Below, one piece after another: positions 10,144 through 46,922 of a stretch of 64,000 bases of DNA. The first letter of the stretch is position 1; each line of letters begins with the position of its first letter. The translations under genes and the position numbers were made by a program. The stretch is from positions 36,089 to 100,088 of the forward strand of contig JAPDJW010000001.1 in assembly GCA_029258885.1 (NCBI GenBank), written 5' to 3'. This DNA comes from Thermoproteota archaeon (GTDB lineage Archaea > Thermoproteota > Thermoprotei > Thermofilales > B9-G17). The notes under the pieces were generated by a model, which saw only the letters and a program-made list of their open reading frames with translations, made no database searches and was not told where the DNA came from.

Positions 10144-10228
10144 GCGGGGGTGGCCGAGCAAGGTCAAAGGCGCCGGACTCAGGCTCCGGTGGCGTAGGCC
10201 TGCGTGGGTTCGAATCCCACCCCCCGCA
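10144..10228 (+). tRNA. tRNA-Leu (CAG), class II with long variable arm
   Basis: Hand-folded. Acceptor GCGGGGG/CCCCCGC, anticodon arm CCGGA-CTCAGGC-TCCGG (anticodon CAG), variable arm TGGCGTAGGCCTGCG, T arm TGGGTTCGAATCCCA, discriminator A. Confidence 0.9.
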
Positions 10229-10364: not shown

Positions 10365-10670
10365 GTAAGCCGGCTATAGCCCGCTTTCTGTACTTGGGGG
10401 ATTTATCTTGGACCTCGGCCTCTACACGGGGATATCATCCGACCGAGGCCTGCTACAGGTTGGCCGTTTCACCCACTCCTTTAACATCGTCTGCGGGTTA
10501 GCTCGTCCCCCGTTACCGGAGAGACTTCGCCGCGGTCATTCTCATCTGTTAAAGGGGGTCTCGTTTCTGATCCAGAGCCAGGGCTCTCGCCCTACCGCCT
10601 TACGGCGGTTGTAGCCCCCGTGTAAGCGGAGCTTCCTCCGGGCGAACCCGGGCACCCCCAGCCGGCTTAC
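10365..10670 (-). ncRNA. rnpB: RNase P RNA
   Basis: ~306-nt GC-rich island. On the minus strand the ends pair (GTAAGCCGGCT ... AGCCGGCTTAC = P1). Conserved-region-like motifs are GGAGGAAGCTCCG (CR-I), GTGGGTGAAACGG (CR-IV) and TACAGAAAGCGGGCTATAGCCGGCTTAC (CR-V). Confidence 0.8.
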
Positions 10671-21759: not shown

Positions 21760-23514
21760 TTGGAGGCGATATTGTTGCCTTTAGTTGAGATCAAGAACCT
21801 AAGCTTTCGATATCATGGACACGAAAATTATGTGCTTAAGAATATTAATTTAGATGTTCATGCGGGTGAATTTATACTCATAATAGGACCTAGTGGTGGA
21901 GGTAAGTCCACGTTAGTAAATTGTATAAACGGTATAATACCTCACGTTATAGAGGGAGTTAAGAAGGGTAAGGTTATTGTAGACGGCTATGATGTAGATG
22001 AAACTCCAATTAAAGAGATGGCTAAAATAGTTGGCACTGTTTTTCAGAATCCAGAAACTCAGTTCTTTTCGCTTAGCGTTTTAGATGAAATAGCGTTTGC
22101 TATGGAAAACCTGAAGTTTTCTCGAGAAGAGATGGAGGAGCGAATAAATTGGGTCATTCAAGAGCTTGGTTTAGAGGGACTATTGAGAAAGGAAGTAAGC
22201 AGATTATCTGGTGGGCAGAAGCAGCTTGTCGCCATAGCATCTGTGCTAGCATTACAGCCTAAACTGTTAATATTCGATGAGCCGACAACGAACTTAGATC
22301 CTCAAGGTGCGTACGAGGTATTGAACATTATAGAAAAAATTAAGGAGTTTTATGGTAGAGCTATAATTTTAATTGAGCATAAACTTGATAAAGTTGCACC
22401 CCTTGCTGATAGGATTTGGGTTATAAGCAACGGTGAAGTAATAATCGATGATACGCCGCAGGAGGTCTTTAAGAATCCAGGTAAAATATACGAGCTAGGG
22501 CTTAAGCCACCCAGTATCGTAGAGATATCCATTCGGCTTAGAAACGAAGGTTTAATTGAACCCAGTGAATTGCCATTAACAGTTGATGAGTTCATGGACA
22601 TTATTCAAAAATACAATCTAAGAAATGTGAGTAGTAGAGATTTCACTTTTACCACAGATAGGATTACTATCAATAGTTCAGATAAACCCTTGATAGAGGT
22701 TAGAAATCTATGGCATCAATATCCTGATGGAACTGTAGCTCTGAGAGGTATTTCCCTGGACATATATAAAGGCGAATTTATTGGGATAATAGGGCCAAAT
22801 GGTTCAGGTAAATCAACGCTGGTCAGCCATTTTCTGGGTCTCTTATCTCCAAGCCATGGTTACGTGAAGATATTTGGAAGAAATGTTAGAGAGTACTCAG
22901 TGTCACAATTAAGTAAAATAGTGGGCTTTATATTTCAAAATCCTGACCTTATGCTTTTTCAAACTACTGTATGGAATGAACTAGCTTTTGGACCGAGTAA
23001 TCTAGGCTTACCGAAGAAGGAAATCGAGAGAAGAGTCAAGGAGGCATTAGCTATGATGAGGTTAGAGGGCTTTGAGGAGAGACATCCCCATGCATTGAGC
23101 AGGGGGCAAAGACATAGAGTTGCCGTAGCCTCTGTACTCACAATGTATCCTGAGATTCTGATCGCTGATGAACCGACGACTGGACAGGACTATGGCGCAT
23201 GTAGGAAATACCTGGATTTGCTGAAGAAAATGAACGAGGCTGGAAGGACCATCATTATCATAAGTCATGATATGAGCCTAATAGCTGAGTATGTTGAAAG
23301 GGTTATTATAATGGTCGATGGAAGGATATTGATCGATGGTCCGACAAGGTTAATCTTTGAGAAGGAGGACCTGTTACGTAAGGTTAGAATAGAACCTCCT
23401 CCTCCAACCCAGCTATCGCTTAGGCTTAAAGACAACGGATACGATGTTCCTGTATGTCTAACGGTCGACGAAGTACATACTGTAATTAGATCTCTATTAG
23501 CCGCCGATAAGTGA
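21760..23514 (+). CDS. duplicated ABC-transporter ATPase (ECF/CbiO-type, two fused nucleotide-binding domains)
   Basis: Two Walker A motifs (GPSGGGKST, GPNGSGKST), an LSGGQ motif in the first domain with LSRGQ at the matching position in the second, and two Walker B motifs (LLIFDEPT, ILIADEPT). Apparent TTG start. Confidence 0.85.
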   Translation: MEAILLPLVEIKNLSFRYHGHENYVLKNINLDVHAGEFILIIGPSGGGKSTLVNCINGIIPHVIEGVKKGKVIVDGYDVDETPIKEMAKIVGTVFQNPETQFFSLSVLDEIAFAMENLKFSREEMEERINWVIQELGLEGLLRKEVSRLSGGQKQLVAIASVLALQPKLLIFDEPTTNLDPQGAYEVLNIIEKIKEFYGRAIILIEHKLDKVAPLADRIWVISNGEVIIDDTPQEVFKNPGKIYELGLKPPSIVEISIRLRNEGLIEPSELPLTVDEFMDIIQKYNLRNVSSRDFTFTTDRITINSSDKPLIEVRNLWHQYPDGTVALRGISLDIYKGEFIGIIGPNGSGKSTLVSHFLGLLSPSHGYVKIFGRNVREYSVSQLSKIVGFIFQNPDLMLFQTTVWNELAFGPSNLGLPKKEIERRVKEALAMMRLEGFEERHPHALSRGQRHRVAVASVLTMYPEILIADEPTTGQDYGACRKYLDLLKKMNEAGRTIIIISHDMSLIAEYVERVIIMVDGRILIDGPTRLIFEKEDLLRKVRIEPPPPTQLSLRLKDNGYDVPVCLTVDEVHTVIRSLLAADK

Positions 23515-24525
23515 GTAGTATAATTTTAGATACTTACGGAATACTTTCTCCCAATTATAATATCTAACTACTTTCTCCTTGGCTTTGTCTGCTAGCGACT
23601 GTGCAATTTTCCTATTATTTACGAGAAATATTATATCTTTAATGAGTTCTTTTTCATCGCCGGGTGATACTAGCAATCCTGTTACTCCGTCCTCTATAAG
23701 CTCAGTGTTTCCGCCTACCCTGCTGGCAATTACTGGAGTTCCACAAGCCATTGCTTCGAGCAATGCGGTACTTAGGCCTTCGTACCTTGACGGTAAAATG
23801 AATACGTCTGCTCCCTTTATAAGCCTCAGGGCTTTCTCTCTTTCCACTTTCCCTAAAAAATGTATATTTTTATAGTGGCCGAATTGTTTTCTTAAATATG
23901 GAAGTAGGGGGCCATCACCTACTATTAGCAAATCGATATCCTTTAGCTTGGTGAACGCCTTAACTAAGATATCTACGCCTTTTTCTCTGGATATTCTGCC
24001 GACGTAAATTGCCTGTTTCTCATAAATCTTATCGCCTTTTAGGGGTATTATATCTAGATTTATTGCATTTGGAATATATGTAACCTTATCCGTATATAGT
24101 CTATAGTGTTTATATGCAGTCTTACTAACAACGGTAACATAATTCACTATCCTTACGCTAGCTTTTTCATAGATGTTTGATAGACGGCTTACGAGCGGAC
24201 CATGTAATTTTTCTACACTTTTGCTATAAACTCCATGTATCGTGAGAATGCGTTTTCCTCTAAAAAATCGTGTAGAAACAGCTGTAACCGTTCCGTGCGC
24301 ATGTATAATATCGTATTTTGGCTTAGTGTATATTAATCCCTTTAATGAACTGGAGATAACGAATGACACGTTTTTTAAGTTCCTAACATTTACGTATGGT
24401 GTATTTTCGCTGGAAATATAATCTACCATGAACCCCCTATTTTTCAGCCTACAATATAGTTCCTGTACGTGTTGAGCTACACCTCCTATCCCCGAAATTT
24501 TCGGAGTTATTAATAATATTTTCAT
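23497..24525 (-). CDS. GT4-family glycosyltransferase
   Basis: GGV..HV N-terminal motif and the C-terminal E-x7-E region (PSRYEGLSTALLEAMACGTPVIASRVGGNTELIEDGVTG). Confidence 0.85.
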   Translation of the reverse strand: MKILLITPKISGIGGVAQHVQELYCRLKNRGFMVDYISSENTPYVNVRNLKNVSFVISSSLKGLIYTKPKYDIIHAHGTVTAVSTRFFRGKRILTIHGVYSKSVEKLHGPLVSRLSNIYEKASVRIVNYVTVVSKTAYKHYRLYTDKVTYIPNAINLDIIPLKGDKIYEKQAIYVGRISREKGVDILVKAFTKLKDIDLLIVGDGPLLPYLRKQFGHYKNIHFLGKVEREKALRLIKGADVFILPSRYEGLSTALLEAMACGTPVIASRVGGNTELIEDGVTGLLVSPGDEKELIKDIIFLVNNRKIAQSLADKAKEKVVRYYNWEKVFRKYLKLYYSLIGG

Positions 24526-24545: not shown

Positions 24546-25916
24546 TTATCTAACTAATATAGGTTTTTCCTTCTCAATCTTTATTATCCTATTATGTATG
24601 GATTCAAAGAGCGCTAGCTCGGATTCCTCGTGAACCTTATGATTGATGAGTGTTATTACAAGAGTTTTTTCGGGGAGATTTTCATATATATGTTGGATAA
24701 ATTTAAATACCGTTAGGACACCTGAGGCTAAAACCAATTGTGTAATGTCTTCTATAACCAGTATCTGTGGTTGTTCACGGTATCTTTTAACGTTTTCTAG
24801 AATGCTATATGAAAGAAGCGATAAGTTTGTCATGGATATTACATGTGGAATTTCCGAGGAAGGTAGTCTAGCCATCAGTATAACACTGAGATGTAAACGT
24901 CCTAGTTTATGAATCCAGCTTCTAAGTCGGCTTGTGACTGGTAGTACCACTACACGGTTCGCGAAGATTTCTTGCTTTAAAATTGAGGAAATTAACTGTT
25001 CGTAGGGTTCTTTTGGATCGTATTCAATTAATACTTTTTCGAAGTTATTTATCTCTATTTTGCCTATGCTAATTTTTACGGTAGCTCTTGTAGCGGGGCT
25101 TATTTGTGTAGGTACTTCATAAACATAAGATAGTTTCTCGCTAATTAACGTCTTAGCATAGAGGAACGCTATGTATACAATTGTAGCGAGAAAGAACGTG
25201 TTCATGGCAGGATATATATTGTACTCAGTTAATGATGCCATATACATGCCGACTAAGCCCACTATCGATTGAATAAGAATTGCTACTATGAGTCTCTTTA
25301 CAAAAATGAAGAGTCTAGGATTTAATAAAATTGACGTGAAGTCCTTAATTTTCTTAGATAGCATAAAGAGTGGAATCAGCCCCAGCGAGACAACTATAAG
25401 GTATAGGTAGTTGTATCTGGGCTGTAGATACTCTTGCCCCACTAGAGGATCAACAACCTTTTCATACCAGCTTACTGGAAGAAGCCACGTTACCAGTATG
25501 AGGGATAACATATAGTATAGGCACAAGGAAGGAAGGAAGTATCTCCAAGATAAAATATATTTTAGTGCCTCTGAAAGGTTCCACCTAACTTCTAAACAGA
25601 CAGCTAGGATAGCTATTATGATCCATGCCGAGTAAAAGATTGTCAATGCAATCATTCCGGGAGTACTCTTACCCCCTATTGAGACAGATAATGTTGTATG
25701 ATGGGGGTCGAAATATATGATGTATATATAAATTAAGTTTAATAGTCCGAGTCCTATTGTAATGATTGAGCTTAGGGCTATGGTTAAAGTAGTTAATGCT
25801 TTAGGTTCTGCATGTCTATACCCGTAGTATAGGTGTATTACTAGCATTAGGTAAAACATAAACACTATCTCAATGACTATCTGTATTATCTTTACGGCTA
25901 TAATTTCATATTCCAC
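24546..25916 (-). CDS. polytopic membrane protein with C-terminal P-loop-less RecA/KaiC-like (DUF835-type) domain, paralog A
   Basis: 456 aa: ~270 aa with ~8-9 TM helices, then a soluble domain carrying VLIEYDP, ILVIEDITQL (Walker-B-like) and LVITLINH. Paralogous to the adjacent gene. Confidence 0.5.
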   Translation of the reverse strand: MEYEIIAVKIIQIVIEIVFMFYLMLVIHLYYGYRHAEPKALTTLTIALSSIITIGLGLLNLIYIYIIYFDPHHTTLSVSIGGKSTPGMIALTIFYSAWIIIAILAVCLEVRWNLSEALKYILSWRYFLPSLCLYYMLSLILVTWLLPVSWYEKVVDPLVGQEYLQPRYNYLYLIVVSLGLIPLFMLSKKIKDFTSILLNPRLFIFVKRLIVAILIQSIVGLVGMYMASLTEYNIYPAMNTFFLATIVYIAFLYAKTLISEKLSYVYEVPTQISPATRATVKISIGKIEINNFEKVLIEYDPKEPYEQLISSILKQEIFANRVVVLPVTSRLRSWIHKLGRLHLSVILMARLPSSEIPHVISMTNLSLLSYSILENVKRYREQPQILVIEDITQLVLASGVLTVFKFIQHIYENLPEKTLVITLINHKVHEESELALFESIHNRIIKIEKEKPILVR

Positions 25917-25962
25917 GCTTGGTACACCTATATTATTAATTTTTAGATATGTTTCCTTAATA

Positions 25963-27354
25963 TTAACTTTCTCTATACGGTGTAATAACTATCTTTAATT
26001 TTCTCGGTTTTAGGAGGTAGTAATCTTTCTCTATTCTCAATACTTTGCCGAACATTTCCTCTATCAATTCGAGTTCCTCCTCTCTATGATACATATAGTT
26101 AACTAATGCTATCATTAGTGATTCTCTAATATTTTGGCTTAAGTATAATATGAAGTCCTTTACTCTTTCATAGCCATTATATATGATCAGGTTTGTAAGA
26201 TCATCTATGATGATCACCGTGTGAAGGTTATGTAAAACTACGTACTTTACTAGCAGACTTGCCAGAAGGGATAAATCTGTTACGGAAATATCTGTACTGC
26301 TACCTTTCTTAGTTTTTACAAAGATATCTACGTAACAGTAACCCTTTTCCTTAAGCTTCTTTAATTCTCCTGCAAGGTTACTATAGTTTCTCGATACGAG
26401 AATTATTAAGGATGTATCGATGAAGTTTTCTACGATAAGTTTTATGAAACGGAGGTAGTTTACTCTGGGGTTATACTCTATCAGTATTCTGTCGTTGGCA
26501 TTTAGTTCGATATTTCCAATTTTATACCTTGTTTTTATTGGCTCTGTGGGTAAGGGTATAGGTTCAACGCGGCTTAATACTTCGAGTCTTCTTTGTATTG
26601 ATATAAGATATATAGCAACAGTTACTGCCGATACCAGCGTGGCTAGAGTCATGTTTACGGGAATGAAGTAACATGGCGATAACAACGCTATGAGTATTGT
26701 CGTTTGAATGAACACTATCAATATTAGCGACCTGAAGAGTTGCTGTAGGTAGTATTCGCCAATCATACGCCCGATCTTGAAAAATAGGCTTAAAATATTG
26801 AAGAGGGGCGGTATTAACATTATAGCTGCTAAAGTAATTATGGGAGAGCGTGCCCTTACAAGCGTAATCCTTAGGCCGGCAGTATCATAAAAAAAGAAGG
26901 TATATTCATCTTTAAATAAAGCCAATAAGAAGAGCTCTATTGAGATTATTGGAAATAGCAAGTAAAGATACTTTTCTAGTTTTTTCCCTAATTTTTCAGT
27001 TCCAGAAAGCCATGATCTTAACGACATAATATCCGTACAGAGTAAGGAGAGTATTACCTGCATAACTAGTATTGTAAGTAAAACAGTACTTCTAGAGTAT
27101 ATTTCTCTAATTAAAGCATCATGTATTCTTCCTAAATTTGCCGTGGCTAATATTATTGTATTGATCATTAAGTGCGTAAATCCACTCGTCAGGTTTATCG
27201 CAATAATTATCGTTATGAGATGTTCCATTGTTTTTTCCTTTATCTTATCCTTGGACATTTTTTCTATTTTAAGTAAGGTAAGTAACATAGCGGCAGAATA
27301 GAGTAGGCCTGCGATCAGGTATATCGTATGTGTATATATTATTGATAGTATCAT
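25963..27354 (-). CDS. polytopic membrane protein with C-terminal P-loop-less RecA/KaiC-like (DUF835-type) domain, paralog B
   Basis: 463 aa with the same architecture: ILIEYNP, VIIIDDLTNL, LMIALVNY, and a C-terminal ...RIEKD matching paralog A's ...KIEKE. Confidence 0.5.
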   Translation of the reverse strand: MILSIIYTHTIYLIAGLLYSAAMLLTLLKIEKMSKDKIKEKTMEHLITIIIAINLTSGFTHLMINTIILATANLGRIHDALIREIYSRSTVLLTILVMQVILSLLCTDIMSLRSWLSGTEKLGKKLEKYLYLLFPIISIELFLLALFKDEYTFFFYDTAGLRITLVRARSPIITLAAIMLIPPLFNILSLFFKIGRMIGEYYLQQLFRSLILIVFIQTTILIALLSPCYFIPVNMTLATLVSAVTVAIYLISIQRRLEVLSRVEPIPLPTEPIKTRYKIGNIELNANDRILIEYNPRVNYLRFIKLIVENFIDTSLIILVSRNYSNLAGELKKLKEKGYCYVDIFVKTKKGSSTDISVTDLSLLASLLVKYVVLHNLHTVIIIDDLTNLIIYNGYERVKDFILYLSQNIRESLMIALVNYMYHREEELELIEEMFGKVLRIEKDYYLLKPRKLKIVITPYRES

Positions 27355-27381: not shown

Positions 27382-27969
27382 CTATATACGTTTGCCTATG
27401 GTTTCGTGAATATAAAGAACTTTAGCATTTTCCTCCATTATCTCGGCTTTTGCATAAGCTGAGTATATATCTTCGGCTATGCATATTACTCCATGTCTTT
27501 TAAGAATTAGTGCTCCTACCATCTTATTGCGTGCTTTTTCTTCAGCTAGGCGTGCCAGTTTTAGGCTGCCTGGAGGGGCATACTCCACTACTTCTATTTT
27601 TCCCACTATTTTCTGGAACTCTGCTACTTCCTCAAGGTATTCTATTAGCCTTTCAAAGAGAGATAATGTATATGGGCTATGTGTATGAACTATTGCATGG
27701 ACATCGTTTCTTACGCTATATATAGCTAGATGCATTCGCCGCTCGCTCGAGGGAGCATGTATTCCCCATAAAACATTTCCTGAAAAATCTATTTTCACAA
27801 TGTCTGCTGGCCTTAACGACCACTTAGGTATGCCCGATGGAGTAATTAGAATTCCGTCATCCATTCTAATGCTGGCATTTCCTGTAAAACTAGAAATAAG
27901 TCCGCGAAGGTACATTCTTTTCATAACATTTACCAAGTCGAGGACGGCATCTCTATCTTTTCTTTGCAT
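27382..27969 (-). CDS. class II aldolase/adducin-family protein (fuculose-phosphate aldolase / MtnB-like)
   Basis: GNASIR, PSGIPK, the E...H.H metal ligands (SERRMHLAIY...VHTHSPY) and KRHGVICIAED. Confidence 0.75.
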   Translation of the reverse strand: MQRKDRDAVLDLVNVMKRMYLRGLISSFTGNASIRMDDGILITPSGIPKWSLRPADIVKIDFSGNVLWGIHAPSSERRMHLAIYSVRNDVHAIVHTHSPYTLSLFERLIEYLEEVAEFQKIVGKIEVVEYAPPGSLKLARLAEEKARNKMVGALILKRHGVICIAEDIYSAYAKAEIMEENAKVLYIHETIGKRI

Positions 27970-31213: not shown

Positions 31214-31288
31214 GGGCCCGTAGCTTAGCCTGGCCGGAGCATCCGGCTGATAACCGGAAGGTCGTGGGTTCGAATCCCACCGGGCCCA
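31214..31288 (+). tRNA. tRNA-Ile (GAU)
   Basis: Hand-folded. GGGCCCG/CGGGCCC acceptor, anticodon arm TCCGG-CTGATAA-CCGGA, T arm GTGGG-TTCGAAT-CCCAC, discriminator A. Confidence 0.9.
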
Positions 31289-31570: not shown

Positions 31571-31589
31571 GAAAAGCCTTGCGGCTTAA

Positions 31590-33087
<1,498 letters not shown>

Positions 33088-33185
33088 CTTATCGGGCGGA
33101 CTCGCTAAGGTGGGCTTGCTGGCTTCATGTAATGCAACCCGGGAGGTAACCTCTCGGGTGAAGGGCACGAATTCTAAAGATGTGT

Positions 33186-33229
33186 GCCATGCATAGGATA
33201 CGCCCACGTATTCCACGCCAGCTAGATCT
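33186..33229 (+). other. 5' strand of the 23S rRNA processing stem (pairs with ~36364-36408)
   Basis: GCCATGCATAGGATACGCCCACGTATTCCACGCCAGCTAGATC versus the reverse complement of GGTCTGGCTGGCGTGGACGTAGAGGGTGTGTCCTATGCATGGC. This is a long interrupted helix flanking the 23S. Confidence 0.7.
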
Positions 33230-36362
<3,133 letters not shown>

Positions 36363-36457
36363 AGGTCTGGCTGGCGTGGACGTAGAGGGTGTGTCCTATG
36401 CATGGCACGGGGAAATGTTTTTAAATAGCTTTCATTCCCTTTTCTGTAGGTTAAATC

Positions 36458-38038
36458 ATGTTTAGAGAGGTTTATCAGGAGATATATCTCCCGGATTCGA
36501 CGGCTATTACGTCGGGTATACTTAGGCGTTGGGTAGATGAGGGTAGGATTGAGGGTAGGATTGCTATTCATTCTCTACTAGTTTCATATTTTGAGGATTT
36601 AGCGAGGAAGGGTATGAGTCAAGGCTTTATTGGGTTGGAGGAGCTTGGGCTTTTAAGAAAGTCCTGCGAAGATAGGGATGGTGTTGAGATTGAGGTTGTT
36701 AGGGATATTCCTCAAGGCTATAGGGTTTCTAGAGACTTAAATGTCGATGAGGTTGTTAGAGAGCTTGCAAGGGACTGGAATGCTACTGTAATTACGTGTG
36801 ATAGGATACAGTATAGGACATGTATTGCTTCTGGCGTTAAGGCATTGTTCTTAGGTGATGAATCTAGGGACGGCTTTCTTATTGAAAAGTTCTTTGATGA
36901 TAAAACTATGTCTGTTCATCTGAAAGAAGGCGTTATACCTTATGCTAAAATAGGCACTCCCGGGAAGTGGAAGTTTAAGCTTCTGGATTCAAAGCCTATT
37001 TCTAGAGCTGAACTTGAGGGTATAGTTAGAAACATATATGAGGTTGCCAGGGAATCTAGGGACGCCTTCATTGAGGTTGAGAGGCCTGGCTCTACAATAA
37101 TTCAGATTAAAAACTATAGGATAGTTATAACTAGACCTCCTTTCTCCGATGGATTGGAGGTAACGGCTGTTAGGCCGGTCATTAAGCTTAAGCTTGAAGA
37201 CTATAATTTACCTAAAAAATTGATTGTGAGGCTGGAGGAGAAGGCGGAGGGTATTCTAATAGCTGGCGCTCCTGGAATGGGTAAAACAACTTTCGCCCAG
37301 GCACTAGCGGAATATTACATGAGAAAAGGAAAGGTAGTTAAGACCGTGGAGTCCCCAAGAGACATGCAGTTGCCGGATGAAATAACACAGTATTCTAAGA
37401 ATTACGCTACATCAGAGGAGATACATGATGTACTTCTGCTTTCGAGGCCCGATTATACGGTTTTCGATGAGATGAGGGATACTAAGGATTTTGAGCTCTA
37501 CACGGATTTGAGGCTAGCTGGGATTGGATTAATTGGCGTTGTACATGCAACTTCAGCTATAGATGCTATTCAGAGGTTTGTAGGGAGAGTGGAGCTTGGA
37601 ATGATTCCGTCCATAATAGATACGGTGATATTCATCAAGGATGGCGCCATAAACAAGGTATATGAGCTGGAGACTACGGTGAAAATTCCGTATGGATTAA
37701 GGGAGGCGGATCTAGCAAGGCCGGTGGTTGTAGTAAAAGATTTTCTTACAGGAAAACCTGAGTATGAAATGTATGTTTTCGGCGAGAGGACATTTGTTGT
37801 CCCCATAAAGAGGTACGAAAGTAAAGAGGAAAAACGTATAAGGAGAAGTATAGAGAAGATTATCCGTAGATATATTCCGGATGAAAGCATTGATATAGAC
37901 GTGCTTAGCGAGGGGAAGGTAATTATTTCAATAGACCCGGAATATTTGCCGATTATTATGGGAAAATTCAAGAAGAGGATAGATAGAGTCGGCAAAAGGC
38001 TGGGGGTCGATATAGAAGTAAGGCCTAAATTATCTTAG
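36458..38038 (+). CDS. PIN-domain / PilT-type ATPase / KH-domain protein (COG1855-like)
   Basis: N-terminal PIN-like YLPDSTAITSG, Walker A GAPGMGKTTFAQALAEYY, Walker B TVFDEMRD, and a C-terminal KH-like segment. A TATA-like TTTTTAAATA sits ~30 nt upstream of the ATG. Confidence 0.75.
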   Translation: MFREVYQEIYLPDSTAITSGILRRWVDEGRIEGRIAIHSLLVSYFEDLARKGMSQGFIGLEELGLLRKSCEDRDGVEIEVVRDIPQGYRVSRDLNVDEVVRELARDWNATVITCDRIQYRTCIASGVKALFLGDESRDGFLIEKFFDDKTMSVHLKEGVIPYAKIGTPGKWKFKLLDSKPISRAELEGIVRNIYEVARESRDAFIEVERPGSTIIQIKNYRIVITRPPFSDGLEVTAVRPVIKLKLEDYNLPKKLIVRLEEKAEGILIAGAPGMGKTTFAQALAEYYMRKGKVVKTVESPRDMQLPDEITQYSKNYATSEEIHDVLLLSRPDYTVFDEMRDTKDFELYTDLRLAGIGLIGVVHATSAIDAIQRFVGRVELGMIPSIIDTVIFIKDGAINKVYELETTVKIPYGLREADLARPVVVVKDFLTGKPEYEMYVFGERTFVVPIKRYESKEEKRIRRSIEKIIRRYIPDESIDIDVLSEGKVIISIDPEYLPIIMGKFKKRIDRVGKRLGVDIEVRPKLS

Positions 38039-38166
38039 TTTCATTAACTATACTAAATTTATAAGGTGAAATAGTATAGCATGTGGTATCTAAACGTAAA
38101 GCATAATTATGAGAGCTACCCTATGCCTTATAGGGATTGCTCTTCTCAGTAAAGTTAGGTGTTGGC

Positions 38167-39117
38167 ATGGCTGTAAGAACATGCAGGAACTGTATCCATT
38201 ATTCACCATCCACCGGATTTTGCCTAAAACTTATGAGGTTCATCAGTGATCCAAATAATCCTCCATGTATAGGTGTTCAAGCTATATCACCAAGCATCAA
38301 TCAACAAGTAAGCAATCCTGTTGTACAAACAGTAAGCGAAGATCAAGATCTAGGTGCTGTCGTAATTAGAGGGAAGCCTAGATATGATAGGGTATATGCT
38401 AAAACGGGTATAGAGCTCCTGGATAAGTTGCTCGGTGGAGGATTTCTAAGAGGAAAAACGTATCTTGTGGCGGGAGAGACGGGGTGTGGAAAAACTATTT
38501 TCTCTCTTCAATTTCTCGTTTATGGAGCGTTAAACGGGGAGCCTGGAGTATACTTAGCGATAGATGAACCCACAGAACATCTACTACGAGGTATTAAGAG
38601 GCTTGGATGGGACGTAACCGAATTGATAGAGGACGGTAAACTGTTATTCCTTGACATGCGAACGCATTTCAGCAAAATATATATGAAGGAGGAGAGAAAG
38701 AAGATAGAGCCTCGTTTCATTATTGAATCAATAATCAATAATATTAGGAAGATTAAAGCTAAGAGGCTAGTGATAGACCCCGTTGCACCTCTAATGTATG
38801 GTGGTTCAACCGATGTATTATATGCAAGGGAGTTCTTAAGAGAAATGGTGTTTTCTCTGGAAAAGCTCAGGACTGTTACCACAATAATGACCAGCGAAAT
38901 ACCGAGTGGAAGCAATAAACTTAGTCGTTTCGGAGTAGAGGAATTTCTTGCCTCAGGTATAATAGTTCTATCTCTAAATGAGATTAGGGGGAGGATCCTA
39001 AGGGTAATGTATATCAGGAAGGCCAGATGGGCGCCTGTACATCCATGCAAATATGTCTTTGAAATTGTGCCAGGTAAAGGTATAGTATTGAAGGGACCGC
39101 TTGAGAATTATGTTTAA
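38167..39117 (+). CDS. single-domain KaiC/RadB-like RecA-superfamily ATPase with N-terminal zinc-ribbon-like segment
   Basis: CRNC...C...C N-terminus. LDKLLGGGFLRGKTYLVAGETGCGKTIFSLQF (Walker A), RLVIDPV (Walker B). ATG at 38167 preferred to the upstream TTG. Confidence 0.75.
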   Translation: MAVRTCRNCIHYSPSTGFCLKLMRFISDPNNPPCIGVQAISPSINQQVSNPVVQTVSEDQDLGAVVIRGKPRYDRVYAKTGIELLDKLLGGGFLRGKTYLVAGETGCGKTIFSLQFLVYGALNGEPGVYLAIDEPTEHLLRGIKRLGWDVTELIEDGKLLFLDMRTHFSKIYMKEERKKIEPRFIIESIINNIRKIKAKRLVIDPVAPLMYGGSTDVLYAREFLREMVFSLEKLRTVTTIMTSEIPSGSNKLSRFGVEEFLASGIIVLSLNEIRGRILRVMYIRKARWAPVHPCKYVFEIVPGKGIVLKGPLENYV

Positions 39118-46825: not shown

Positions 46826-46922
46826 GGGCCCGTGGCCTAGTGGAAAAGGCGGCGAGTTTTCCCGTAAGCCTGCGGATAGTGTAGAAAGCCGCAGAGCGTG
46901 GGTTCGAGTCCCACCGGGCCCA
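46826..46922 (+). tRNA. tRNA-Arg (GCG) with two short introns (13 nt at 29/30, nt 46855-46867; 11 nt at 37/38, nt 46876-46886)
   Basis: The acceptor, D arm and T arm are intact, but 46 nt lie between position 26 and the T stem. Removing the two segments gives GCGGC-CTGCGGA-GCCGC-AGAGC. Both splice-site pairs fall after the 2nd nt of 3-nt bulges separated by 4-bp helices. Confidence 0.75.

What the first reader, a model, noticed from the sequence alone, without database searches (positions are those of the whole stretch)
24546..27354. Tandem paralogs: polytopic membrane domain fused to a RecA/KaiC-like domain that has lost its P-loop
Two adjacent same-strand genes (456 and 463 aa) share an architecture: ~270 aa with 8-9 TM helices, then a ~190-aa soluble domain. 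The shared C-terminal landmarks are I-G-(K/N)-IE-(I/L)-N, (V/I)LIEY(D/N)P, a hydrophobic strand ending in (E/D)D(I/L)T(Q/N)L (Walker-B-like), and L(V/M)I(T/A)L(I/V)N. The layout mirrors single-domain KaiC/RadB ATPases, such as the one at 38167-39117. Where GxxGxGKT should follow the first strand, both paralogs read EYDP/EYNP. Inference: these are inactivated RecA-superfamily (DUF835-like) modules acting as cytoplasmic signalling or scaffold domains of membrane sensors. They may work with a genuine KaiC-like ATPase. Function is unknown, and the tandem duplication suggests a heteromeric pair.
Basis: partly seen in the sequence, partly recalled or inferred. Interest (0 to 1): 0.55.

Follow-up and report, generated by a model that had tools for sequence, protein, structure and literature searches.

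The report
Tandem membrane-anchored dead KaiC-like (DUF835) proteins
Two neighbouring genes of an uncultured hot-sediment archaeon each encode a seven-helix membrane protein ending in a KaiC/RecA-type domain that has lost its ATP-binding loop; this makes them very divergent members of the already described archaeal "inactivated KaiC" (DUF835) signalling family, not a new kind of system.

Summary
Two minus-strand genes, A (24546-25916, 456 aa) and B (25963-27354, 463 aa), each join an N-terminal polytopic membrane domain to a roughly 200-aa soluble C-terminal domain. I count 7 TM helices, not 8-9. The C-domains are paralogous (30% identity, E=2e-15). The TM domains show no sequence similarity above chance.

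The interpretation also holds. Both proteins hit Pfam DUF835, below its gathering score (E 1e-5 and 1e-6). An AlphaFold model of B's C-domain (pLDDT 76) best matches FlaH/ArlH and KaiC in the PDB. Neither protein has a Walker A motif: the P-loop position reads E-Y-(D/N)-P. The Walker-B-like strand is kept.

DUF835 is already described in the literature as an inactivated KaiC-like (iKaiC) signalling domain. Fusions of a 7TM domain to DUF835 also exist elsewhere. In three Thermoplasmata genomes such proteins sit in kaiC-kaiC-7TM-DUF835-DUF835 operons.

What is unusual here:
- Extreme divergence: B had only 4 hits among 1.84 billion representative proteins.
- Two single-domain genes instead of one two-domain gene.
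- A 7TM domain that cannot be assigned to any family.
- No adjacent KaiC gene.

The function is inferred, not shown: probably a non-catalytic membrane sensor or scaffold pair. Verdict: new member of a known kind, modest interest.

The parts
25963..27354 (-). Gene B, 463 aa: 7TM domain plus C-terminal DUF835-like (iKaiC) domain
   Evidence: ORF. Pfam DUF835 E=1.9e-6, 28.1 bits. Identical protein found in at least 6 assemblies.
26572..27354 (-). B residues 1-261: seven-helix membrane domain, predicted N-out/C-in, loops of 19 aa or less, no family assignable
   Evidence: Hydropathy and K/R bias. AF2 shows 7 long helices at low confidence, pLDDT 30-60 for most of it. No Pfam or NCBIfam hit. No relation to a HisKA_7TM profile.
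26011..26529 (-). B residues 276-448: RecA/KaiC-fold pseudo-ATPase domain
   Evidence: AF2 pLDDT 76.4. Foldseek top hits are FlaH and KaiC. Canonical DUF835 HMM scores 28.7 bits over residues 373-440.
26455..26487 (-). B residues 290-300, ILIEYNPRVNY: strand beta-1 plus the loop that replaces the Walker A P-loop
   Evidence: Secondary structure of the model. In hhalign against KaiC the P-loop falls on a gap plus EYNP. E, Y, P and the following Y are invariant in A, B and P0020.
26188..26217 (-). B residues 380-389, VIIIDDLTNL: Walker-B-like strand
   Evidence: Aligned with canonical DUF835 'vvliDDi.yL', with FlaH 'fivIDsLsiL' and with KaiC 'LViDsle'.
24546..25916 (-). Gene A, 456 aa: 7TM domain plus C-terminal DUF835-like (iKaiC) domain
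   Evidence: ORF. Pfam DUF835 E=1.5e-5, 25.3 bits. Paralogous to B, E=2e-15. dN/dS about 0.17 among strains.
25143..25916 (-). A residues 1-258: seven-helix membrane domain
   Evidence: Hydropathy and K/R bias. No sequence similarity to B's TM domain, z=0.
24567..25085 (-). A residues 278-450: pseudo-ATPase (iKaiC) domain. VLIEYDPKEPY at 25002-25034 and ILVIEDITQL at 24735-24764
   Evidence: Alignment with B and DUF835 domains. Canonical DUF835 HMM scores 21.3 bits over residues 368-446. Motif coordinates.
27382..27969 (-). Upstream same-strand neighbour, 27 bp gap: class II aldolase (FucA-like). Possible co-transcription; functional link untested
   Evidence: Pfam Aldolase_II 7.8e-43. NCBIfam FucA_Meth 2.2e-38, below its cutoff.
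23497..24525 (-). Downstream same-strand neighbour, 20 bp gap: GT4 glycosyltransferase. Possible co-transcription; functional link untested
   Evidence: Pfam Glycos_transf_1 5.3e-41. The arrangement is identical in all assemblies of this species.

Best explanation
A and B are a lineage-specific tandem pair of membrane proteins. Each has a seven-helix N-out/C-in membrane domain with only short loops, followed by a cytoplasmic KaiC/RecA-fold domain. That domain is a highly divergent member of the DUF835 ('inactivated KaiC', iKaiC) family.

The domain cannot bind or hydrolyse ATP in the canonical way. Walker A is replaced by a shorter E-Y-(D/N)-P-x3-Y segment. The catalytic Glu after strand 2 is absent. 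Only the Walker-B-like hhhh(D/E)D strand remains. This much is shown.

The mechanism is inferred. The pair most likely acts as a non-catalytic signal-transduction or scaffold unit. The 7TM domains would sense a membrane or envelope cue, or simply anchor the protein. The two iKaiC domains would associate with each other as an A-B heteromer. This would be the two-gene equivalent of the tandem DUF835-DUF835 in canonical relatives. The heteromer would then dock onto a RecA-type oligomeric partner encoded elsewhere and modulate its assembly or activity. That partner could be a genuine KaiC-like ATPase or an ArlH-like/secretion-type ATPase.
For: Shown:
- Architecture and paralogy.
- DUF835 is the only family hit.
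- An exhaustive phmmer search with B finds paralog A (2e-9) and two DUF835 proteins, P0019 and P0020, at about 7e-4 against the whole library.
- Reciprocal profile hits. A canonical-only HMM scores B 28.7, A 21.3 and P0020 19.2 bits. An HMM of A, B and P0020 hits all 23 canonical domains.
- A combined profile hits FlaH 4yds at 9.9e-5.
- The AF2 model matched with Foldseek gives FlaH, KaiC, Rho and Elp456.
- A collinear hhalign alignment with KaiC places the P-loop on a gap, P=0.008.
- No Walker A in either protein.
- Purifying selection and intact ORFs in 8 assemblies.

Support for the inferred mechanism:
- The literature classifies DUF835 as iKaiC, an output domain of archaeal response regulators (REC-DUF835), within the proposed KaiC-centred signalling network (PMC5847659).
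- In three Thermoplasmata genomes, HisKA_7TM-DUF835-DUF835 genes directly follow two tandem single-domain kaiC genes on the same strand. In L010 and L011 the start codon overlaps the preceding gene by 4 bp.
- Both arrangements carry two iKaiC domains per unit.
- The EY(D/N)P...Y motif at the former P-loop is invariant in A, B and P0020, so the site is still under constraint.
Against: - No KaiC gene is adjacent here. The only one in the 64-kb window (38137-39117) lies 11 kb away beyond the rRNA operon and next to a different ATPase.
- The Pfam scores are below the DUF835 gathering threshold.
- Sequence similarity to canonical DUF835 covers only the C-terminal half of the domain.
- The N-terminal half, including the former P-loop, is assigned by the AF2 model and a weak hhalign alignment. 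The model's MSA was 23/25 canonical DUF835 sequences.
- The TM domain is modelled at low confidence and matches no sensor family.
- No orthologues exist outside this species, so gene-neighbourhood conservation cannot be tested.
- The A-B interaction was not modelled.
- The immediate neighbours are sugar-metabolism genes, not signalling genes.
Confidence: 0.6

Rival explanations
1. The pair belongs to a cell-envelope glycan pathway. It would be co-transcribed with the FucA-like aldolase and the GT4 glycosyltransferase, next to a divergent GalU-like sugar-nucleotidyltransferase. A and B would act as a membrane platform or regulator for glycan or lipid-linked sugar assembly. This would loosely resemble the membrane co-polymerase/P-loop kinase pairs of bacterial polysaccharide export, but without catalysis.
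For: The four genes lie on the same strand with gaps of 27, 46 and 20 bp. The neighbours are identified as Aldolase_II, Glycos_transf_1 and NTP_transferase/GalU-like. The arrangement is identical in every assembly of the species.
Against: All assemblies are at least 99% identical, so conservation of the arrangement carries no information. No orthologous locus exists in another lineage. AT-rich TATA-like stretches precede both A and B, so separate promoters are possible. Canonical DUF835 loci show KaiC neighbours, not glycosylation genes. The TM domains match no glycan polymerase, flippase or ligase family.
Confidence: 0.12
2. The 7TM domain is a transporter or channel, and the dead KaiC-like domain is merely its cytoplasmic regulatory or oligomerisation module.
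For: Each protein has seven TM helices with very short loops and no extracytoplasmic ligand-binding domain. The tandem paralogs could form a heteromeric pore.
Against: No Pfam or NCBIfam transporter family was detected even at E<=1. The TM sequences of A and B have diverged beyond recognition while the C-domains are conserved. This suggests the constrained function lies in the soluble domain. DUF835 elsewhere is fused to REC, PAS, TPR and a histidine-kinase-type 7TM domain, which are signalling contexts.
Confidence: 0.1
3. The C-domains still bind a nucleotide or another phosphorylated ligand in a remodelled pocket. In that case they would be ligand-gated switches, not inert scaffolds.
For: The E-Y-(D/N)-P-x3-Y motif at the former P-loop is invariant across A, B and P0020. 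The acidic Walker-B-like residues are retained. The nearest structural neighbour, FlaH/ArlH, is itself mainly an ATP-binding switch rather than a hydrolase (PDB 4yds title; references).
Against: There is no Gly-rich loop, no Lys and no Ser/Thr to hold phosphates, and the loop is about 4 residues shorter than a P-loop. An acidic residue at the end of strand 1 would repel phosphate.
Confidence: 0.12

Closest known systems
DUF835 / 'iKaiC' (Pfam PF05763). The nearest examples are the Thermoplasmata HisKA_7TM-DUF835-DUF835 proteins (P0019, P0021-P0027; loci L010-L012).
   Same: Both have a membrane 7TM N-terminus followed by a cytoplasmic KaiC-fold domain without Walker A. Both keep the hhhhDD strand, the N-G-(F/Y)-E-(K/R)-V helix and the (N/D)P..(F/H).E.E tail. 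Both carry two iKaiC domains per functional unit.
   Different: Window proteins score below the Pfam gathering cutoff and are only 12-23% identical to canonical domains. They have one iKaiC domain per protein, in two tandem genes that duplicated independently: A and B are 30% identical to each other, closer than either is to d1 or d2. Their 7TM domain is unrelated in sequence to HisKA_7TM. They have a distinctive EY(D/N)P motif and an N-terminal beta-hairpin. They have no kaiC genes in the operon, whereas L010-L012 have two.
ArlH/FlaH, the KaiC-like archaellum protein (PDB 4yds, 4wia)
   Same: It is the best structural match (Foldseek E=9.5e-7, TM about 0.5) and the best PDB sequence-profile match (E=9.9e-5). 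The profile match runs from the helix before the Walker B strand to the end of the domain. It is also a single-domain, RecA-fold, non-motor protein that works by docking onto another ATPase.
   Different: FlaH has an intact Walker A and was crystallised with ATP and Mg. It is soluble and encoded in the arl cluster. A and B lack the P-loop, are membrane-anchored, and are not in an archaellum locus.
Single-domain archaeal KaiC-like ATPases (Pfam PF06745), for example window 38137-39117
   Same: The fold and the order of secondary-structure elements are the same, and the profile-profile alignment is collinear.
   Different: The genuine KaiC has GETGCGKT and a DE after strand 2 and scores 227 bits on PF06745. 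A and B give no PF06745 hit at E<=1 and lack both catalytic motifs.
Elp4/5/6 (PDB 4a8j), eukaryotic RecA-fold pseudo-ATPase ring
   Same: These are RecA-like subunits without a canonical ATPase site (from general knowledge of Elongator) that serve as an oligomeric scaffold. They are among the top structural matches.
   Different: The relationship is an analogy of principle only. There is no sequence relationship, and Elp4/5/6 are soluble and eukaryotic.

Membership tests
DUF835 / iKaiC (PF05763) | Match to the Pfam model at or above its gathering score (33.1 bits) | tested here: not met
   A scores 25.3 bits (E=1.5e-5) and B 28.1 bits (E=1.9e-6). Both are significant but below the cutoff. The public precomputed annotation lists PF05763 as 'weak' for B and gives nothing for A.
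DUF835 / iKaiC (PF05763) | Reciprocal, specific sequence homology to bona fide DUF835 domains | tested here: met
   phmmer with B against 1.84e9 representatives returns, besides itself and A, only DUF835 proteins. A canonical-only HMM hits B, A and P0020. An HMM of A, B and P0020 hits all 23 canonical domains, 6-36 bits. Similarity is limited to the C-terminal half of the domain.
DUF835 / iKaiC (PF05763) | RecA/KaiC-type alpha/beta fold | tested here: met
   The AF2 model has pLDDT 76.4 and pTM 0.72. Foldseek returns FlaH, KaiC, Rho and Elp456 with E 1e-6 to 1e-4 and probability 1.00. Caveat: the MSA was mostly canonical DUF835.
DUF835 / iKaiC (PF05763) | Walker A absent while the Walker-B-like hydrophobic strand ending in D is kept | tested here: met
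   Neither protein has GxxxxGK[ST]. EY(D/N)P sits at the P-loop position. IIIDD and LVIED align with the nearly invariant D of DUF835.
DUF835 / iKaiC (PF05763) | Fusion to a sensor, receiver or membrane module (typical, not strictly defining) | tested here: met
   Both have a 7TM N-terminal domain. Compare HisKA_7TM-DUF835 and TPR-DUF835 and REC-DUF835 (PMC5847659).
DUF835 / iKaiC (PF05763) | Operon with genuine kaiC genes (seen in the nearest canonical loci; not a formal criterion) | tested here: not met
   L010-L012 have kaiC-kaiC directly upstream. The window has an aldolase and a GT4 as neighbours. Its only KaiC is 11 kb away.
KaiC-like ATPase (PF06745) | Pfam match, intact Walker A GxxGxGK[ST] and catalytic acidic residues after strand 2 | tested here: not met
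   There is no PF06745 hit at E<=1 and no Walker A. Strand 2 is followed by SRN or PVT, not EE or DE.
HisKA_7TM (PF16927) membrane sensor domain | Sequence match of the N-terminal 7TM region | tested here: not met
   No Pfam hit. hhalign and hmmsearch against a profile of eight HisKA_7TM regions give probability <=0.3% and negative bit scores. The hydropathy profile correlates only r=0.1-0.2.
Any characterised transporter family | Profile match covering the membrane domain or the whole protein | tested here: not met
   Pfam and NCBIfam at E<=1 show nothing except a spurious 0.17 hit. PADLOC shows nothing.

The most novel reading that the evidence does not exclude
A and B form a self-contained, KaiC-independent heteromeric 7TM receptor. 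Under this reading their remodelled former nucleotide pocket, with the invariant E-Y-(D/N)-P-x3-Y motif, has acquired a new ligand or partner. The receptor would control the adjacent sugar and glycosyltransferase genes. This would be a previously unseen use of a dead RecA-fold domain as the output of a membrane receptor for envelope glycan synthesis in Thermoprotei.
Probability: 0.08. Interest if true: 0.6.

Novelty: new member of a known kind. Interest (0 to 1): 0.3.

Why it matters
Archaea largely lack bacterial-style signalling, and KaiC-like ATPases with their inactivated relatives have been proposed as its replacement. Almost nothing of that proposal has been tested.

This locus adds a very divergent, Thermoprotei-restricted branch of the iKaiC/DUF835 family. 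It also shows two things that bear on how the family works. The "two dead KaiC domains per unit" arrangement has arisen twice: as tandem domains in Thermoplasmata and as tandem genes here. The module can also occur without a neighbouring kaiC gene.

That makes the pairing of two pseudo-ATPase domains a concrete, testable hypothesis. The locus does not open a new category and does not resolve the function of the family.

Tried and rejected
- Word-indexed homology search with full-length B found only B itself.
- The same search with the A+B C-domain alignment returned nothing, not even the query proteins. This looks like a limitation of the tool's alignment mode and carries no biological meaning.
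- A profile of A+B alone against PDB sequences gave only a spurious phage ring-protein hit, E=0.31.
- hhalign of A2 or A3 against the single window KaiC sequence gave nothing. With a 7-sequence KaiC alignment a collinear alignment appears at P=0.008.
- A scan of GTDB genomes with the A/B/P0020 alignment found no relative. A scan of JGI metagenomes found only the same species. Phyletic and neighbourhood analysis of this subfamily was therefore impossible.
- P0020, the one other EYDP-type protein, sits on a 1.3-kb contig without context and is a singleton.
- The first full-length alignment for AF2 (A4) scattered the DUF835 domains over the TM region and was discarded. A5 was used instead.
- The TM domain in the full-length model has pLDDT mostly 30-60. 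It was used only to count helices and was not searched with Foldseek.
- A alone has a 'GGKST' at residues 80-84. I rejected it as a cryptic Walker A because it lies in a predicted extracytoplasmic loop and does not fit the pattern.
- A defence-system reading was rejected: PADLOC gave no hits.
- Makarova et al. 2017 (mBio 8:e01959-17), the primary description of iKaiC families, is not held in the library. Its content is cited only through PMC5847659.
Full report
**The genes and their setting.**
The window comes from an uncultured archaeon that NCBI records label as a Thermoprotei MAG from hydrothermal sediment metagenomes. Its DNA is about 38% G+C, and a 63% G+C rRNA operon lies at 31589-36367.

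On the minus strand lie two ORFs, B (25963-27354, 463 aa, ATG) and A (24546-25916, 456 aa, GTG), 46 bp apart. Gene callers report the same products in at least eight independent assemblies of the same species. The ORFs are intact in all of them. For A, the strain differences are 7 synonymous and 4 non-synonymous over 313 and 1055 sites, giving dN/dS of about 0.17. These are real, constrained genes.

**Architecture.**
Kyte-Doolittle analysis gives seven hydrophobic segments in the first ~260 residues of each protein. The full-length AlphaFold2 model of B has seven long helices plus a small hairpin in loop 4 (the membrane part has low confidence).

K/R residues concentrate in loops 1, 3 and 5, with 11 against 4 in B and 7 against 3 in A. 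The topology is therefore N-out/C-in, and the C-terminal domain is cytoplasmic. All loops are 19 aa or shorter, so there is no extracytoplasmic ligand-binding domain.

**Paralogy.**
BLASTP aligns only the C-terminal ~200 residues, at 30% identity and E=2e-15.

The TM domains have no sequence similarity beyond composition (z=0 against shuffles). Their helices are in register, with a hydropathy correlation of 0.67-0.70. Because the helices are evenly spaced, this is weak evidence. A whole-gene duplication followed by free divergence of the TM sequences is the simplest reading, but only the C-domain homology is demonstrated.

**What the C-domain is.**
- Pfam reports a single family for both proteins, DUF835 (PF05763). 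The E-values are 1.5e-5 and 1.9e-6, but the scores (25.3 and 28.1 bits) are below the 33.1-bit gathering score. NCBIfam has nothing.
- An exhaustive phmmer search of B against 1.84 billion representative proteins found four proteins in total. These were B itself, paralog A (2e-9), P0019 (6.6e-4) and P0020 (7.8e-4).
- P0019 is a textbook HisKA_7TM + DUF835 + DUF835 protein, scoring 159 bits on PF05763. P0020 is a 320-aa membrane protein that shares the 'ILVEYDP' motif.
- A profile built only from 20 canonical DUF835 domains hits B (28.7 bits), A (21.3) and P0020 (19.2). A profile of A, B and P0020 hits all 23 canonical domains. In every case the aligned part runs from the helix before the Walker-B-like strand to the end of the domain.
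- A combined profile hits the FlaH/ArlH sequence of PDB 4yds at E=9.9e-5 over the same region.

**Fold and loss of the active site.**
The AlphaFold2 model of B residues 258-463 was built with an alignment of A, B and 23 DUF835 domains. It has pLDDT 76.4 and pTM 0.72. Foldseek against the PDB returns FlaH 4yds first (E=9.5e-7). Dozens of KaiC chains follow, then Rho, the pseudo-ATPase ring Elp4/5/6 and FlaH 4wia, with TM 0.5-0.58.

In the model, strand RILIEY (289-294) is followed by a five-residue loop, NPRVN, and then helix 300-310. A profile-profile alignment with seven KaiC sequences is collinear over the entire domain (P=0.008). It places the KaiC GxxGxxK[ST] on a four-residue gap plus E-Y-N-P, and aligns IIIDD with the KaiC Walker B LViD.

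Neither protein contains a Walker A pattern. The acidic residues that follow strand 2 in KaiC are replaced as well. The genuine KaiC of the window, by contrast, has GETGCGKT and scores 227 bits on PF06745.

The 'RecA/KaiC-like domain that has lost its P-loop' is therefore confirmed. One caveat applies: the N-terminal half of the domain is assigned by the model and a weak profile alignment, not by strong sequence similarity.

**What is already known.**
DUF835 is explicitly listed as 'iKaiC, inactivated KaiC-like ATPase domain'. It is an output domain of archaeal response regulators (REC-DUF835 and REC-PAS-PAS-DUF835, 36 proteins in Methanomicrobia and Thermoplasmata) in Galperin et al. 2018 (PMC5847659). 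That paper cites Makarova, Galperin and Koonin 2017 for the detailed description and for the proposal that KaiC-family proteins form a signalling hub in archaea. I could not read the 2017 paper.

The public protein collection also holds 7TM-DUF835 and TPR-DUF835 fusions.

**Context in relatives and here.**
The canonical relatives found in GTDB genomes are three Thermoplasmata/Methanomassiliicoccales loci. In all three, the HisKA_7TM-DUF835-DUF835 gene directly follows two tandem single-domain kaiC genes on the same strand. In L010 and L011 the start codon overlaps the preceding gene by 4 bp. L012 has a second copy of the 7TM-DUF835x2 gene, and a conserved 166-170-aa protein lies upstream in L010 and L012. 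This is direct genomic support for DUF835 modules working with genuine KaiC ATPases.

In the window the neighbours are different. On the same strand lie a FucA-like class II aldolase 27 bp upstream and a GT4 glycosyltransferase 20 bp downstream. A GalU-like nucleotidyltransferase is transcribed divergently. The only KaiC in 64 kb lies 11 kb away across the rRNA operon, beside a T2SSE-type ATPase.

No orthologue of A or B exists outside this species in any collection I could search. The significance of the sugar-gene neighbourhood therefore cannot be assessed.

**Mechanism.**
Shown: these are membrane-anchored, cytoplasm-facing, KaiC-fold domains without a nucleotide-binding loop, under purifying selection, present as a pair.

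Inferred: the two iKaiC domains associate. A and B are 30% identical to each other and 12-23% identical to canonical domains. Their duplication was therefore independent of the d1/d2 duplication in Thermoplasmata, yet both give two iKaiC domains per unit. The pair would then act as a non-catalytic sensor or scaffold that docks onto a RecA-type oligomer encoded elsewhere.

The invariant E-Y-(D/N)-P-x3-Y motif at the former P-loop shows that the site remains constrained. This leaves room for a remodelled ligand or partner site.

Rivals that are not excluded are a role in envelope glycan assembly suggested by the neighbours, a transporter with a regulatory tail, and a ligand-binding switch. Each has less support.

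**Verdict.**
The finding is a very divergent new member of a known kind, the DUF835/iKaiC membrane-associated signalling proteins. Interest is modest, about 0.3. The most useful by-product is the parallel between tandem domains and tandem genes, together with the kaiC-kaiC-7TM-iKaiC-iKaiC operon seen in Thermoplasmata.

Noticed in passing
L010 3872-6954, L011 3869-6969, L012 3031-7933: In three Thermoplasmata/Methanomassiliicoccales MAGs, the HisKA_7TM-DUF835-DUF835 gene directly follows two tandem single-domain kaiC genes on the same strand. These have Walker A G(T/P)(S/T)GSMK(S/T)T. In L010 and L011 the start overlaps the preceding gene by 4 bp. L012 carries a second 7TM-DUF835x2 gene. A conserved 166-170-aa protein of unknown function lies upstream in L010 and L012.
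   Followed up: partly
window 36458-39117 (+): A T2SSE/PilT-type ATPase (526 aa, GAPGMGKT) is followed by a genuine KaiC-like ATPase (GETGCGKT). The KaiC has a ~75-aa N-terminal extension carrying a Cys-rich C-x2-C...C...C segment. The pairing recalls ArlI-ArlH, but no other archaellum genes were seen.
   Followed up: partly
window 31589-36367 (+): A 16S-23S rRNA operon has about 63% G+C in a genome of about 38% G+C, typical of a hyperthermophile. A tRNA lies just upstream at 31214-31288.
   Followed up: no
window 46826-46922 (+) and 10144-10228 (+): Two tRNA matches are longer than usual, at 97 and 85 nt. They may contain introns or be long-arm tRNAs. Archaeal RNase P RNA lies at 10365-10670.
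   Followed up: no
L002 7436-8463 (equivalent to window 23497-24525): In one assembly (GCA_053995735.1) the GT4 glycosyltransferase downstream of A is split into 199-aa and 116-aa ORFs by an indel. It is intact in the other assemblies. This is either an assembly error or strain-level loss.
   Followed up: no
window 21760-23514 (+): A fused double ECF-transporter ATPase (ECF_ATPase_1 + ECF_ATPase_2 in one 584-aa chain) converges on the GT4 gene and overlaps its 3' end by 18 bp.
   Followed up: no
window 26263-26289 and 24813-24839 (-): The S-x-T motif (ISVTDLSLL / ISMTNLSLL) is conserved, and canonical DUF835 has LSPTRLDFE at the same place. In B it follows a low-confidence Ser/Thr-rich loop, KKGSSTD. 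It sits at the N-cap of the helix before the Walker-B strand. Whether it is a phosphorylation site is pure speculation.
   Followed up: no
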